From positions 83,824,001-83,888,000 of the forward strand of contig NC_083282.1 of the NCBI RefSeq assembly GCF_963506605.1: 64,000 nucleotides of DNA, in the 5' to 3' direction. Below are positions 54,401-62,200 of this stretch, piece after piece. The position numbers were made by a program. Source of the stretch: Zootoca vivipara. Lineage: Eukaryota. The first letter of the stretch is position 1, and each line of letters opens with the position of its first letter.

Positions 54401-57400
54401 CTGAGCAACATAGATGTGTGTCTTCACTATCCATCTTTTTGACCAGACACCATCCCAGCAGAAAGCTGTCAGCATTAGGTCCTATTGGACCAGAGAAGGT
54501 GATCATACAAAATGAAAATGACTAAAACTATCATCTAGGTTTAGGAAGCCAATAGTTCTTCCTTCTGATTCTTTGCTTCTCACTTTTGTAACTACCCAAT
54601 TTACTGCTGGCTTTGTATTTTCAAAGGAAGAGTGGCCAATTGTCCCATCGCAGTAGCCCTTGATAGAACCTGAAATCATTTTGCACCTGGTACAACCTGC
54701 CCTAACTAAATACACACAACACCTTATGCCATCTTAAGGCTGCCCCAAAGCAAATGTTTGGCCTTTTCATTATATCTTGAACCAGGGGTCAGCAAACTTT
54801 TTCAGCAGGGGGCCGGTCCACTGTCCCTCAGATCTTGTGGGGGGCCGGACTATATTTTGGAGGGGGGAAAATGAACGAATTCCTATGCCCCACAAATAAC
54901 CCAGAGATGCATTTTAAATAAAAACACACATTCTACTCATGTAAAAACACCAGGCAGGCCCACAAATAACCCAGAGATGCATTTTAAATAAAAGGACACA
55001 TTCTACTCATGTAAAAACATGCTGATTCCCAGACTGTCCGCGGGCCTGATTTAGAAGGCGATTGGGCCACTTCTGGCCCCCGGGCCTTAGTTTGGGGACC
55101 CTGTCTTGAACCCTCCACCTTTCCTTGAAAACTGAACATCTAATTCTGACATAAGTGTTCTGGAGCACTTGAAAGCTTTTTCAATACTAAAACATTTAAG
55201 TTGGTCGCAGTACAATAAGGTTTGTGCTTTGACATCAATTCTACAACAGTGATCCTGAGAAAGCTCTGCATACTTAAATATTAGCTCTGGACCATCTTTC
55301 CAACTTGCCACTAGATTGAGATTTATTAGCAAGTGTTTATTTCTTTGAAGTTTAAAATTATAAATTTTTAAAGCTTTTTTTCTTCCTCATTACATCAGTT
55401 CATAAAAGTTCCACGGTTAACAGTAGATTTACAAGCTAAGTTGTGACAATAATTCTTTGTGAAAGAGTGGTTTAGGAGGGATGGGAACTTGTGGCCTTCC
55501 ACATGTTGTTAGAATCCAACTCCCATCATCTCAAGTCAGTATGGCCGATGGTCAGGGAAGATGGGAGATGGACTCCAACATCATTTGCTTCTCACACCTG
55601 GTTTAGCAGAAAGCAGAGGCTTGATATTCTGGTTCAGCTGCTGTCTGACATTGCAGCCAACTATCTAAAAAGACAGGTGCACATGTGAAGTAATCAACAG
55701 CCTTCTGGATATACACAGGCATTTACTCTTCTGTTTCATTGTAGACAGGTGGCAAGATTCTCCTAGAGTTGGCCTTAACCCATGGGTGCGCTATTATTTC
55801 TTTCAAGGGAAGCCGCAGGGAAGGTGTGCGGTTGAGTACTTTGGATATTAGGTCTTTGGCTCCATCTGACACCCAAGAAGGGAATGAAAAGTTAACCTTG
55901 GAAGAAAAGAATGTTTTAAGTTACATTTTCTTATGAAGCTAGTTGTGTCTTCTGCTTTCTTTCTTTTTAAAAAAAAAACTTGAATGCATTACCCTAGTGC
56001 CAGTTTATCTGCTTCTCCACCCCCATGCAGCTTTCCTAGCTGCACATCAGCTTTGCCCTAAGATGCTCATACTGTTGGACAAGGACATTGTCAATTATGT
56101 ATCTTGTTCAGCACTTCTAGAAATAGGGTTATGTTAGCCATCCCTCAAAGGCCGACATGTCTGTGGGGGTATGGTCAAGGTATAAAAGGTAAAAAAAGAT
56201 AAAGGACCCCTGGACAGTTAAGTCCAGTCAAAGGCAATGATGAGGTTCTGGTGCTCATCTTGCTTTCAGGCCAAGGGAGCCGGCATTTGTCCACAGACAG
56301 CTTTCCGGGTCATGTATATGTACCAGCAGCCACACGCTAGGCATGTGCATTCATTGAACAAGCAGTACACACACTCACCAGACACATAGTCTCTCAGAAC
56401 TCTGGTATACACACACATGTCTTGCTCTTTCCACTCCAGTGTTGGGGGCGGGAGGAAACCCTTCCTTTTACTCTTTCAAGAACAGGCAGAGGGCTCATCT
56501 TCACACTGTGGCATTTAGTGCCAAGATCTGAGATCAAAGAACTTATCTAAAAAGGCAGCCAGGGGCTCTTTTATTTCCTAATCGGAAGATTAAGCACTCT
56601 ATTTGCTCTTTAAAAATTGCTCTCTAAATAATAGAGGGTGTTATCTCCTGACTAGATTTTGAGAAAAAAGCATCAGGGGCTGGCAGGCCACATGATCTGG
56701 CAGGGTGGGGGCAGATCTTGATTGTGGGTTAGCCACCCTGGCTCATGGCTCTTAAGCTTGATGCTATAACCTAATGTGCCCATTCAAGTCTCAATGATAA
56801 ACCATCAAGATTTGGCCCCAAGTTTCAAGCTGTAGATTGCAAATTCCATTTAATCTCAAAGCTTTTTGCTCAGAAGAACATACCTCTTTTATTCTTCGGA
56901 AAGTCTCCATCTGCGTTGGTGCTTCAAATGGTGCATATCCTGCAAGACACTCGTAACAAAGGACACCAACGCACCACACATCGACATTCTCACTGTGTGG
57001 ACTCCCCTCTATCATTTCTGGAGCAAGGTAGTCCGCAGTGCCACAGAACGTTGTCCTCCTATTTTTTTTTAAATAAAAAAAATGGGGTCAGTTTAAAGTG
57101 CCAGTTGAAACCCAGTTTAAAATGGGTTCACTTTTAACAGGACACATTATTCTCCCGATGAAAGCATGAATTTTACTGACCCTATTCTGCCTTTCACAGC
57201 TGCCAAATACACAGAAATTTAGCAGGTGAATTTTTTGCTCACATGAATCTTCCCAACAGTACTGAATTCTTAAAAAATATATGTGTATACATACCTAAGC
57301 GATGGAGCATGCACTGACCATCCAAAGTCTGCCAACTTCAGCTCCCCTCTTAATCCTAACAGGAGGTTTTCTGGCTTAATATCTCTATGAATCACTTTTA

Positions 57401-59270: not shown

Positions 59271-62200
59271 CACACACACACACACACACGGGCTTGGCTT
59301 TGCTCTCTTCACAATACATTTACCTATCAGGTTTTCTTTAAGGGGTATGTACACCCTCAGTGGTGGAGCTTCATACTCCGGCACTGGGGGCAGAGAGCAG
59401 GCGGGGGTGGGGCTGGCGCATGTTCTGGGGGAGTGGCGTGGTGCCCGTAGGGGCGTGGCGCCCATTGTGGGGGCGTGGGGCCCAGCACGGATGGGCGGGC
59501 GCAGCCGCAATGGCGCCCTCGCATTTGCGCTGCCCGGGGCAGAGTGCCCCTATCGTCCTGCCCTTCCTACGCCCCTGTACACCCTCCGAGGCACATTAGG
59601 CCAACAAACAGGGTTGGCTCATCCATGAGGTGGACTGAAGCAGCTGCCTTGGGTGACTGAATCCCCAGGTGGCAAAATGAGAAAGGCTGCCCCTGCCAAT
59701 AAATATTGACTACTCCAAGCTCACCAGCCATATGTTCTATGTTTTGCATTACTTCATCTCCAGCCAGCTCCTCCCATGGAGCAGTAGCCTTTGTATTCGT
59801 ACTCACGGTGGCTGTTCTGATGTCATCAAAGTGTGTTTTCTTCTGTAGCTCCTTGTACAGTTCTCCTCCTGGAGCATATTCTAACATCAGAAAAACCCGG
59901 GTCTGGTCATGGAAATAGTTATACATCCTTAAGATATTTGGGTGTCTAGGCAGTTTTTTTGTTTAAAGGAAAAAAGGAGAGGACCTGTGGTTTAGGTCAC
60001 ATAAGAAGTAAGCCGCTGTGATAGGTAGACAAAATATACAAGGTCTACATACTACATATGAATGTACTAAGCAGATTCCCAAATTGCCCCATCCAGGAAG
60101 AAGATACTATTGAGATACAAGTTGCATTTGAATCACTCAATGCATGCTCCCTTGGAAGCAAATCTCCATTATGTTCAGTGGGGCTTACTCTTAGGCAGAC
60201 GGCGGGCATAAGATTGCAGCTGAAACTAAGGATGCAATCCTATGCACCAACCTGGTGTCCTCCAGATGTTTTGGACTACATAACATCTACATAATGTTTC
60301 AGAGGTGATAATGAGGCTTTCCATGGTTTGACAGATTTAGCACAGAGCAGGTATGCAGACCACGTGGCCCTCTAGATCCTGATGGACTATAATTCCTCAA
60401 CATGCTCTACCAAAGCAAGGTTCCTTAGCTCAGTGGTAAGCACCTGCACTGCATGCAGAAGGCCCTACCTTGTAGCTATTATGATGTTGATGATTTAATT
60501 ACCGTATTTTTCTGTGTATAAGACTAGGTTTTTTAACCAAAAAATTAGGTTTAAAATTGGGGCCCGCCTTATACACGGGTAGTGCTGAGGGGTGTTTTCT
60601 TAATTTGGAGTCCCCAAAAATAAGGGGCGTCTTATACTTGGGGACGTCTTATGTACGGGAAAATACGGTAATTAAATTTGTTAGCCACTTTATCTTTTCC
60701 AAGGAAACACAAAGTGACTTGCAACCAACCAACTCACCAAACCACAGATACATTAAAACAAAAGGGGGGGGGGAATACATTTAAAAAATCAGTGCCTAGC
60801 ATCTTCAGGTGGGGCTAGGAAAGACTATTGTCTGAAACTTCAGAGCTGCTGCCAGTTAACACATAGTACTGGATGAAGTAATCATAAATGAACCAATCAT
60901 AGAGTTTGAAGGGACCCCAAGGGTCACCAACTCCAACCCCCTGCAATGCAAGAATCTCAGCTAAAGCATCCATGACAGATGGCTATCCAATGGTCTGACT
61001 CTGTATGAGGCAGCTGCCTCTGCATTCAGTTGCTTTACCTGAGGTGACTTAAGATTTCTATTTCTCTTCTGAGCTGGTGCTCTAGCTGAGATTTTTCCAG
61101 CAATGATTTGAAAATGACTTTCAAGGCCAAGATGAAGTGAGTTTTTTTCTCCCGGGCCAAGTACACTGCTCCAAATCTCCCCTTGCCAAGTGGCTTGCCA
61201 AATTCAAAGTCTGAGGTGCCCCACATTTTCCTGTAAATCAAAGGGGGCAGTTAAAATCAATGACTAAACCAAGAGAAATATACATTTCCTTTACCAGCAT
61301 GATAATACATCTGGATAATCCCCATCTCTGATGCAGCACTGCTGCCCTCCAGGATCATGTGCTCAGGGGGAGGTTGGCCAGTGTGCTCAGTGACCATGGT
61401 CACATTATCTGCACAGGAGTGTAGCATGTAAAGGGGGAGGACTCTGAATACTTGGGCAGAGGTGTCACAGGTAGTCCAAGCAGGACATGCTGGAGTAGAC
61501 TGATAAGTAAATGCAAGGCAGTTTTCTTATGACTGATCAGGGGCATTGTAATTAAAATATGTCACTGAGAAGATTAAACAAAAATCCATCAAGATATTGC
61601 ACCTGTAAAGAAAGTAGAAGGCAGGCAAAGGTTGACAAAAGGTACATAACCACAGAAAAAAGCACAATGTGTGTACAAGATACACACACCTAGTTTCTAA
61701 CTCAGTATTCAAAGCCATTCTTAAATGCAACATGGCAGAAGATTCCTCCAGTATAATAGTCATAACCAGACACTTTTAAATAGTTACCTGGGAAGCAGAG
61801 AACCAGAGTCACGTTGGGCATTTTCTTGAGATCCATTTTCTTGAGATCCATTTTCTTCTGCAATAACAATTGCACCAACTTAGAGGCATGATGTGATGGG
61901 CAGTAGTTATGGATCTAGTTAAAGTACTTTTCATGTAACTGAATTGCTGTACAATGGACCCTCCGGATATGAATTAAATTCATTCCGTGGATGCTTCTGC
62001 AACCCGAAAAGTCCGTAGGCAGAGGTGCCACTTCTGCGCACACACATGGCGTGATTGAGCGCACATGCACGTGCGGCAGGGAGTATATACTTCCTCGTTT
62101 GCCACGTTCGTAACCCAAAAATTACATATCCAGAGTGGTATGTAACTAGAGGGCCCATTGTATACGTAATAAGTACTTTTTCAAAAGCTGTTCAAACTAT

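What the first reader, a model, noticed from the sequence alone, without database searches (positions are those of the whole stretch)
55723..61857. Intact but divergent Aurora B/C-type kinase gene at an unexpected locus: candidate extra squamate Aurora paralog
Seen: a spliced kinase with all catalytic motifs and no lesions. The class-defining residues are B-type: RMYNYFHD has Asn at the Aurora A G198 / B N142 position that sets TPX2 versus INCENP preference, GELYKELQK has Glu at A T217 / B E161, and the tail is [11 protein letters not shown]. Motifs normally near-invariant in Auroras are altered: GKGRFGAV (usually GKGKFGNV), EIEILSHL (EIQ), [10 protein letters not shown] (CGTLDYLPPE) and YAPFE (PPF). 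The T-loop RRTT resembles Aurora A. Established: human AURKB is on 17p13, the human gene upstream of PRELID3B is ZNF831, and non-mammalian vertebrates are generally described with only A and one B/C gene. Inference: an intron-retaining, fast-evolving duplicate, possibly a germline-specialised analogue of mammalian AURKC.
Basis: partly seen in the sequence, partly recalled or inferred. Interest (0 to 1): 0.72.

Follow-up and report, generated by a model that had tools for sequence, protein, structure and literature searches.

The report
Divergent Aurora B-type kinase gene beside PRELID3B
This is a real, spliced and apparently working gene for an Aurora B-type cell-division kinase that sits in an unusual place and has changed several normally fixed residues, but whether it is an extra copy or the animal's only copy could not be tested here.

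Summary
Five minus-strand exons (61230..55723) encode a complete protein-kinase domain and C-terminal tail. All splice sites are AG/GT, the phases fit, and there are no stops. Searched exon by exon against solved structures, every exon hits Aurora kinases (E 1e-18 to 1e-25). Aurora B scores best in exons 2, 3 and 5 and in the last 37 residues of exon 1. Exon 4 is a tie, and only the first 26 residues of exon 1 favour Aurora A.

Exon 4 is unusually divergent. It is 36-38 of 56 identical to Aurora A, B (human, frog) and C, while those four are 43-51 of 56 identical to each other.

The gene lies 5.8 kb upstream of PRELID3B in the block CTSZ-TUBB1-ATP5F1E-PRELID3B. The matching chicken block is described without an Aurora gene.

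Two points weaken "intact extra paralog". No start-codon exon or promoter was found before the window ends. No tool here could search the same genome for a second B-type gene.

I lean towards an extra, fast-evolving duplicate (0.5). A relocated sole AURKB (0.33) stays open. Joined-exon searches and folds were left out.

The parts
61788..61857 (-). Candidate upstream coding exon N (70 nt). It is preceded by AG and followed by GTAACT. It ends with 2 bases, which fits the single first base of K1. It begins with 2 bases, so it needs 1 base from a further upstream exon. It has no in-frame ATG. Its first 39 nt are a perfect 15-bp tandem repeat (2.6 copies), in frame.
   Evidence: No PDB match at E up to 10. 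Status: candidate only.
61039..61230 (-). Kinase exon K1: glycine-rich loop GKGRFGAV, beta-3 lysine (ALKV) and alpha-C glutamate (RREIEI).
   Evidence: Pkinase profile positions 1-55. PDB: all 60 rows shown are Aurora A, 86.9-86.3 bits. For the last 37 residues, human Aurora B 44.2 bits beats Aurora A 41.8. For the first 26 residues, Aurora A scores 31.7 and B is not among the 60 rows shown.
59807..59945 (-). Kinase exon K2: RMYNYFHD, carrying the class-marking Asn, and GELYKELQK.
   Evidence: Pkinase 57-97. Frog Aurora B 68.2 bits, human B 67.7, human C 66.1, ordinary Aurora A about 62. 34 of 46 identical to frog B, counted by hand.
57295..57443 (-). Kinase exon K3: catalytic loop HRDIKPEN and DFG.
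   Evidence: Pkinase 103-147. Human B 88.0 bits, frog B 82.4, human C 80.6, Aurora A 74.6-76.1. 42 of 48 identical to human B.
56884..57058 (-). Kinase exon K4: activation-loop threonines (R|RTT), the altered P+1/APE segment [10 protein letters not shown], and YAPFE.
   Evidence: Pkinase 155-208. Human C 78.5 bits, an Aurora A entry (3d14) 76.6, human B 76.6, frog B 76.5.
55723..55896 (-). Kinase exon K5: last subdomains, B-type tail [11 protein letters not shown] and stop codon TAA (55725-55723).
   Evidence: Pkinase 227-263. Frog B 69.9 bits, human B 58.7, human C 46.5, Aurora A about 45.
55322..55341 (-). Two AATAAA signals about 385-400 nt downstream of the stop. Plausible end of the 3' UTR.
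   Evidence: pattern scan only; use not shown.
48205..49915 (-). Start of the downstream neighbour PRELID3B. ATG at 49915 inside a CpG-rich stretch (49.5-50.5 kb). Exon 2 lies within 48205-48456.
   Evidence: PRELI family E 6.7e-18. Start-motif scan and CpG table.

Best explanation
The locus encodes a catalytically competent Aurora B-type serine/threonine kinase, the kind that acts as the enzymatic subunit of the chromosomal passenger complex.

Shown:
- Five correctly spliced exons give a full kinase domain. It has the glycine-rich loop, the beta-3 lysine, the alpha-C glutamate, HRD, DFG, activation-loop threonines, an APE glutamate and a frog-Aurora-B-like tail.
- The class-marking residues are those of B, not A.

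Inferred:
- It binds the INCENP IN-box and is switched on by phosphorylation of the RRTT threonine.
- Its altered activation and P+1 segment (Leu>Ala, Pro>Ala) and glycine-loop changes shift regulation or substrate preference.
- It arose as a DNA-level (intron-keeping) duplicate of AURKB that landed next to PRELID3B and then evolved faster than Aurora genes usually do. That would make it a lineage-specific additional B-type Aurora.
For: Gene model.

B class: frog or human B tops K2, K3, K5 and the last 37 residues of K1.

Acceleration in K4 (counted by hand):
- The query is 36 of 56 identical to human C, 38 of 56 to Aurora A (3d14), 36 of 56 to human B and 36 of 56 to frog B.
- The five reference pairs I counted among those four (of six possible) are 43-51 of 56 identical.
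- Of 39 columns invariant in the four, the query differs at 6.
- In K1 the glycine loop differs from Aurora A at two positions.

Position:
- Same-strand neighbour of PRELID3B, in the order CTSZ, TUBB1, ATP5F1E, PRELID3B.
- The chicken segment with TUBB1, ATP5E, SLMO2, ZNF831 and EDN3 is described with exactly those five protein-coding genes (PMC10325862, passages).
- AURKB synteny is reported as nearly perfect between human, opossum and monotremes (PMC8470780, passages). A position in the 20q13-like block is therefore not the mammalian one.

Constraint: in a substitution-only neutral simulation the frame stayed open in 78 of 400 runs at 10% residue change, 43 of 400 at 15% and 11 of 400 at 20%.
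Against: - No start-codon exon, CpG island or promoter was found between K1 and the window end. Candidate exon N has no in-frame ATG and no detectable relative. The gene may run off the window or may lack a 5' end.
- No second B-type gene was shown, because the rest of the genome could not be searched.
- The chicken comparison rests on an annotation-based sentence in one paper. It says nothing about squamates, turtles or crocodilians.
- The first 26 residues of K1 score better with Aurora A, and K4 does not discriminate.
- The open frame is only moderate evidence for constraint.
- Expression is unknown.
Confidence: 0.5

Rival explanations
1. It is this species' only AURKB (AURKBC) gene. Either the gene moved here in this lineage, or this is an older sauropsid position. 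The unusual residues would then be lineage-specific drift in an otherwise ordinary essential gene.
For: It is B-type in most exons, with all catalytic residues kept. Non-mammalian vertebrates are described as having only AURKA and one AURKBC gene (PMC8470780, passages). None of my seven literature searches aimed at an extra Aurora paralog or at this locus found a reptile with an extra Aurora gene. No second copy lies in this window (each of the 5 exons matches only itself below E 0.29).
Against: Six changes at 39 columns that A, B and C of human and frog all keep are unexpected for a sole essential kinase. The chicken block has no Aurora gene, yet a chicken aurora B protein exists (PMC2806593, passage on antibodies to chicken aurora B). 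Mammalian AURKB sits in a different conserved block.
Confidence: 0.33
2. It is an incomplete or recently silenced duplicate. The kinase exons are still open, but the gene lacks a working 5' end or promoter and is on its way to becoming a pseudogene.
For: No ATG exon or CpG island within 2.8 kb upstream. Candidate exon N begins with a perfect 15-bp tandem repeat and matches nothing. Residues normally fixed have changed. With 10% unconstrained residue change the frame would still be open in about one run in five.
Against: There are 273 codons without a stop or frameshift, all 9 checked splice dinucleotides of K1-K5 are canonical, and every catalytic residue is kept. Exon N has a strong donor in exactly the phase K1 needs. 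The window simply ends 2.8 kb upstream, so a missing first exon is expected.
Confidence: 0.12
3. It derives from AURKA, which in human lies on the same chromosome arm (recalled), and only looks B-like by convergence or gene conversion.
For: The first 26 residues of K1 score best with Aurora A. The RRTT activation loop matches the Aurora A entry 3d14.
Against: K2, K3, K5 and the rest of K1 all rank B above A, by 2.4 to 25 bits. The tail is frog-B-like over 35 of 56 residues.
Confidence: 0.03

Closest known systems
Xenopus laevis Aurora kinase B-A (PDB 2bfx, 2bfy, 5eyk and others)
   Same: Best match for K2 (68.2 bits, 34 of 46 identical, including the whole [13 protein letters not shown] and GELYKELQK stretches) and for K5 (69.9 bits, 35 of 56, tail [15 protein letters not shown]).
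   Different: The glycine loop, the EI(Q>L) position, and six K4 columns that frog B shares with human A, B and C but this gene has changed. K4 is only 36 of 56 identical.
Human AURKB (PDB 4af3)
   Same: Best match for K3 (88.0 bits, 42 of 48 identical) and for the last 37 residues of K1 (44.2 bits, 27 of 37).
   Different: K5 scores 11 bits lower than with frog B. K4 is 36 of 56 identical, whereas human B and frog B are 45 of 56 identical there. The human gene lies in another chromosomal block (recalled; synteny statement in PMC8470780).
Human AURKC (PDB 6gr8, 9esa)
   Same: Same B/C class. Nominal top hit for K4 (78.5 bits).
   Different: Not an ortholog by the evidence here. The K5 tail scores 46.5 against 69.9 for frog B, and K3 scores 80.6 against 88.0 for human B. 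AURKC is described as restricted to eutherian mammals (PMC8470780).
Human AURKA (many PDB entries)
   Same: Fills all 60 rows shown for whole K1 (86.9-86.3 bits) because of the first 26 residues. Has an RRTT-type activation loop.
   Different: It has Gly where this gene and B have Asn, and it differs at the GELYKELQK stretch. The class meaning of these residues is recalled; the B-identical stretches are shown. It scores lower in K2, K3 and K5.

Membership tests
Eukaryotic protein kinase / Aurora kinase family | Complete Pkinase domain with all catalytic motifs | tested here: met
   Pkinase matches on 5 of 5 exons, collinear over profile positions 1-263. GxGxxGxV, the ALK lysine, the alpha-C Glu, HRD, DFG and APE were read in the translations.
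Eukaryotic protein kinase / Aurora kinase family | Closest solved relatives are Aurora kinases | tested here: met
   In each of the 5 exon searches all rows shown (60 per search) are Aurora A, B or C entries, including fusion constructs, with E 1.4e-18 to 6.2e-25 at the top.
Aurora B/C class | Asn at the position that is Gly in Aurora A, and the Glu/Lys pattern of GELYKELQK | tested here: met
   K2 is identical to frog Aurora B over [13 protein letters not shown] and GELYKELQK. That these residues set the partner preference is recalled from the literature, not tested.
Aurora B/C class | Scores higher with B/C than with A along the domain | tested here: inconclusive
   B beats A in K2, K3, K5 and the last 37 residues of K1. 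K4 is a tie within 2 bits. The first 26 residues of K1 favour A. No tree could be built because no set of reference sequences was on hand.
Aurora B/C class | Binds the INCENP IN-box and joins the chromosomal passenger complex | not testable with these tools
   This would need the joined protein, which was left out, and a partner sequence from the same species.
Mammalian AURKC (orthology) | Groups with AURKC rather than AURKB | tested here: not met
   K5: frog B 69.9, human B 58.7, C 46.5 bits. K3: B 88.0, C 80.6. Only K4 nominally favours C, by 1.9 bits.
Lineage-specific extra Aurora B paralog | A second B-type Aurora locus in the same genome | not testable with these tools
Within the window there is no second copy.
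Lineage-specific extra Aurora B paralog | Position differs from that of AURKB in other amniotes | tested here: inconclusive
   The locus is in the CTSZ-TUBB1-ATP5F1E-PRELID3B block. The chicken block is listed without an Aurora gene, and mammalian AURKB synteny is conserved elsewhere. No data on other reptiles were seen.
Complete protein-coding gene | Start codon, first exon and promoter | tested here: not met
   No phase-compatible exon with a convincing ATG and no CpG island between 61231 and 64000. The gene probably continues beyond the window.

The most novel reading that the evidence does not exclude
Squamates (or a subgroup of them) carry a third Aurora kinase gene. It would be an intron-containing duplicate of AURKB inserted beside PRELID3B, which has rebuilt parts of its activation and P+1 segment and its glycine loop. 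It would serve as an independently evolved counterpart of mammalian AURKC, for instance in meiosis.
Probability: 0.4. Interest if true: 0.62.

Novelty: new member of a known kind. Interest (0 to 1): 0.45.

Why it matters
Textbook accounts give non-mammalian vertebrates one Aurora A and one Aurora B/C gene, and treat the B/C split as a eutherian event (PMC8470780, passages). A second, independently duplicated B-type Aurora in reptiles would be a natural replicate of the AURKB/AURKC split. It would also offer a natural set of substitutions at positions that A, B and C otherwise keep fixed: the Leu and Pro of the CGTLDYLPPE-type segment, and the Lys and Asn of the glycine loop. That would be useful for asking what those positions do. 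If it turns out to be the only AURKB of the species, it is an ordinary gene with a moved address and some unusual residues.

Tried and rejected
1. N-terminal exons. I enumerated every GT donor upstream of K1 with an open frame in the needed phase, then those upstream of exon N carrying a Met.
   - Only exon N (61857..61788) is convincing.
   - A Met-bearing stretch ending at 63661 (donor GTGAGT) is hydrophobic and lies antisense to what looks like a LINE fragment, so I do not adopt it.
   - The ATGs inside exon N are out of frame and run into a stop inside K1.
2. A PDB search with exon N found nothing at E up to 10.
3. The whole-K1 PDB search showed only Aurora A rows because of the 60-row display. 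I therefore searched the two parts of that exon by reference.
4. The per-exon tblastn against the window found no second Aurora copy or pseudo-exon.
5. Rfam found no family in the window.
6. Literature.
   - Seven of the ten searches aimed at an extra Aurora paralog or at this locus, and none found a paper describing an extra Aurora gene in a reptile.
   - One search was badly designed (15,473 papers) and uninformative.
   - Of the other three, (Aurora gene-family evolution) added nothing new, (DT40) led to the chicken aurora B passage, and (avian missing genes) listed no paper that holds AURKB.
7. Left out by rule: any search, fold, structure comparison or complex prediction with the joined exons.
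Full report
**What is there**

On the minus strand between 61230 and 55723 lie five exons. Read one after another, they give an uninterrupted kinase domain and C-terminal tail. 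I read the boundaries from the sequence and re-derived them with a script:
- K1 61230..61039
- K2 59945..59807
- K3 57443..57295
- K4 57058..56884
- K5 55896..55726, then TAA at 55725-55723

Every exon follows an AG, and K1-K4 are each followed by GT (GTAAAG, GTGAGT, GTATGT, GTATGT). The phases fit. K1 ends with two bases and K2 starts with one, K2/K3 is phase 0, K3 ends with two bases and K4 starts with one, and K4/K5 is phase 0. That makes 273 whole codons with no stop. Introns are 1093, 2363, 236 and 987 bases long. GC3 of the exons is 0.47, against 0.45 GC in the introns. Two AATAAA signals lie about 385-400 bases past the stop.

Pfam's Pkinase model matches all five exons in order, at profile positions 1-55, 57-97, 103-147, 155-208 and 227-263 of 263.

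**Which Aurora**

Each exon was searched against the sequences of solved structures.

| Segment | Result (bits) |
|---|---|
| K2 | frog Aurora B 68.2, human B 67.7, human C 66.1, ordinary Aurora A about 62 |
| K3 | human B 88.0, frog B 82.4, human C 80.6, Aurora A 74.6-76.1 |
| K5 | frog B 69.9, human B 58.7, human C 46.5, Aurora A about 45 |
| K4 | human C 78.5, an Aurora A entry (3d14) 76.6, human B 76.6, frog B 76.5 (not discriminating) |
| K1, whole | all 60 rows shown are Aurora A, 86.9-86.3 |
| K1, last 37 residues | human B 44.2, above Aurora A 41.8 |
| K1, first 26 residues | Aurora A 31.7; B not among the 60 rows shown |

- One Aurora A entry, 2wtv, scores 67.0 in K2. I recall it as an engineered B-mimicking mutant, but the tool does not say so.
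- The gene is therefore B-type over most of its length, with a small A-like patch just before and in the first strand of the kinase domain.
- The K2 alignment shows complete identity with frog Aurora B over [13 protein letters not shown] and GELYKELQK. That these residues decide between TPX2 and INCENP is my recollection of the literature and was not tested here.
- The activation loop RR|TT is split over K3/K4. It matches the Aurora A entry rather than the K or R seen in B and C.

**How divergent**

All identities below were counted by hand from the printed alignments.

| Segment | Identity |
|---|---|
| K1 | 43 of 62 to human Aurora A |
| K1, last 37 residues | 27 of 37 to human B, 26 of 37 to Aurora A |
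| K2 | 34 of 46 to frog B |
| K3 | 42 of 48 to human B, 39 of 49 to frog B |
| K5 | 35 of 56 to frog B |

The clearest result is K4, for which one search printed alignments to human C, an Aurora A entry, human B and frog B.
- The query is 36, 38, 36 and 36 of 56 identical to these four.
- I counted five of the six pairs among the four references, and they are 43 to 51 of 56 identical: human B/frog B 45, human B/Aurora A 44, frog B/Aurora A 43, human B/human C 51.
- In this exon the gene is therefore further from every Aurora than Aurora A is from Aurora B.
- Of the 39 columns where all four references agree, the query differs at six: Leu>Ala and Pro>Ala in the CGT.DYL.PE segment, Lys>Asn, Leu>Val, Val>Ala, and Pro>Ala before PFE.
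- The Pro>Ala change produces the APE motif common to most other kinases.
- In K1 the glycine loop differs from Aurora A at Lys>Arg and Asn>Ala, and the EIQ position is EIL.
- K3, with the catalytic loop and DFG, is conventional.
- The catalytic residues themselves are all kept.

**Is the frame kept by selection?**

I ran a substitution-only neutral simulation on the five exons, kept separate. The frame stayed open in 178 of 400 runs at 5% residue change, 78 of 400 at 10%, 43 of 400 at 15% and 11 of 400 at 20%. Indels were ignored, so these are upper bounds. The open frame and nine intact splice dinucleotides speak for constraint. They do not exclude a recently silenced copy.

**The 5' end is not resolved**

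- Upstream of K1, the only exon-like piece with a good donor in the phase K1 needs is 61857..61788. It has an AG acceptor after a pyrimidine-rich run and a CAG|GTAACT donor.
- It has no in-frame ATG and needs one base from a still earlier exon.
- Its first 39 bases are a perfect 15-base tandem repeat of 2.6 copies, which is in frame.
- It matches nothing among solved structures at E up to 10.
- The ATGs within it are in another frame and run into a stop inside K1 (frame listed).
- I found no convincing Met-bearing exon and no CpG-rich stretch between 61231 and 64000. CpG observed/expected is at most 0.63 in any 500-base window there.
- The gene most likely continues beyond the window. Alternatively, translation starts at the ATG that forms the second codon of K1, which would give a protein with almost no N-terminal extension. 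Either way, "intact" is proven for the kinase domain only.

**Surroundings**

By Pfam and reading, the window holds:
- cathepsin Z-type exons on the minus strand at about 7.1-11.4 kb (Peptidase_C1). The name CTSZ comes from my reading of the peptides;
- a beta-tubulin gene on the plus strand from 18352 to 24897;
- the last coding exon of the ATP synthase epsilon subunit on the minus strand near 30.2 kb;
- PRELID3B on the minus strand, with its ATG at 49915 in a CpG-rich stretch and exon 2 near 48.3 kb.

The Aurora stop codon is 5.8 kb upstream of the PRELID3B start, on the same strand. The order CTSZ, TUBB1, ATP5F1E, PRELID3B matches human 20q13.32 as I recall it. No second Aurora copy lies in the window.

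I do not take this contig for human. The exons are 62-88% identical to the human proteins, and the tail is closer to the frog protein. The tools could not name the species.

**What the literature adds**

- PMC8470780 (passages read) states that cold-blooded vertebrates have AURKA and an ancestral AURKBC. It also states that AURKC is eutherian, that AURKBC is found in most reptiles and "was probably lost in birds", and that AURKB synteny is nearly perfect among human, opossum and monotremes.
[quoted passage not shown] No Aurora gene is annotated at the corresponding chicken position.
- PMC2806593 (passage) reports antibodies raised against chicken aurora B. Birds therefore do have the protein, and its gene must lie elsewhere. 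My inference is that it sits in a poorly assembled region.
- Together these make the PRELID3B position unlikely to be the general amniote address of AURKB. They say nothing about other reptiles.
- None of my seven literature searches aimed at an extra paralog or at this locus found a paper describing an additional Aurora gene in a reptile. One search was too broad to be informative. Supplements were closed.

**Verdict**

- The B/C-class assignment, the divergence at normally fixed residues and the position next to PRELID3B are supported by tool results.
- The central claim, that this is an extra paralog, could not be tested.
- I rate an additional, fast-evolving duplicate of AURKB as the most likely reading (0.5), mainly because of the changes at columns invariant across A, B and C. 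The other readings are a relocated sole AURKB (0.33), an incomplete or silenced duplicate (0.12) and an Aurora A derivative (0.03).
- A germline role like that of AURKC is an analogy without evidence here.

Noticed in passing
window 7136-7332: A run of 197 N lies inside the region of the cathepsin Z-type exons. The exon just beside it (7333-7515, minus) still matches Peptidase_C1 (E 6.6e-15).
   Followed up: no
window 7100-49915: Conserved gene block: cathepsin Z-type (-), beta-tubulin TUBB1-type (+, 18352-24897), ATP synthase epsilon (-, about 30.2 kb) and PRELID3B (-, ATG 49915). CpG-rich stretches lie at about 12.4-13.4 kb, 30.3-31.0 kb and 49.5-50.5 kb.
   Followed up: partly
window 43402-45146 (+): Two adjacent long ORFs (299 and 275 aa, in different frames) of a LINE-type element inside a PRELID3B intron. 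The first matches reverse transcriptase RVT_1 at E 9.6e-34. The long open frames suggest a young insertion.
   Followed up: partly
window 33897-34795: A purine-rich stretch gives a 291-aa serine-rich ORF on the minus strand (loose SLDLSS-like motif) and a 163-aa glutamate-rich ORF on the plus strand. There is no Pfam family and no tandem array by TRF. It lies between ATP5F1E and the 3' part of PRELID3B. Unexplained.
   Followed up: partly
window 61819-61857: A perfect 15-base tandem repeat of 2.6 copies forms the first 39 bases of candidate exon N. It encodes a repeated five-residue unit in the frame that fits K1.
   Followed up: yes
window 59212-59286 and 59300-59600: An (ACAG) microsatellite of 18.8 copies sits in the K2-K3 intron. 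Next to it is a GC-rich (0.56), CpG-poor segment with long ORFs in several frames. Probably repeat-derived.
   Followed up: no
window 51310-51558 (+), 63591-63875 (+), 21599-21946 (+): Three ORFs of 83, 95 and 116 aa look like pieces of transposable-element proteins. The second resembles a LINE endonuclease and the third the 3' part of a CR1-type ORF2; both resemblances are recalled only. None matches a Pfam family.
   Followed up: partly
whole window: No Rfam family reaches its gathering score on either strand.
   Followed up: yes
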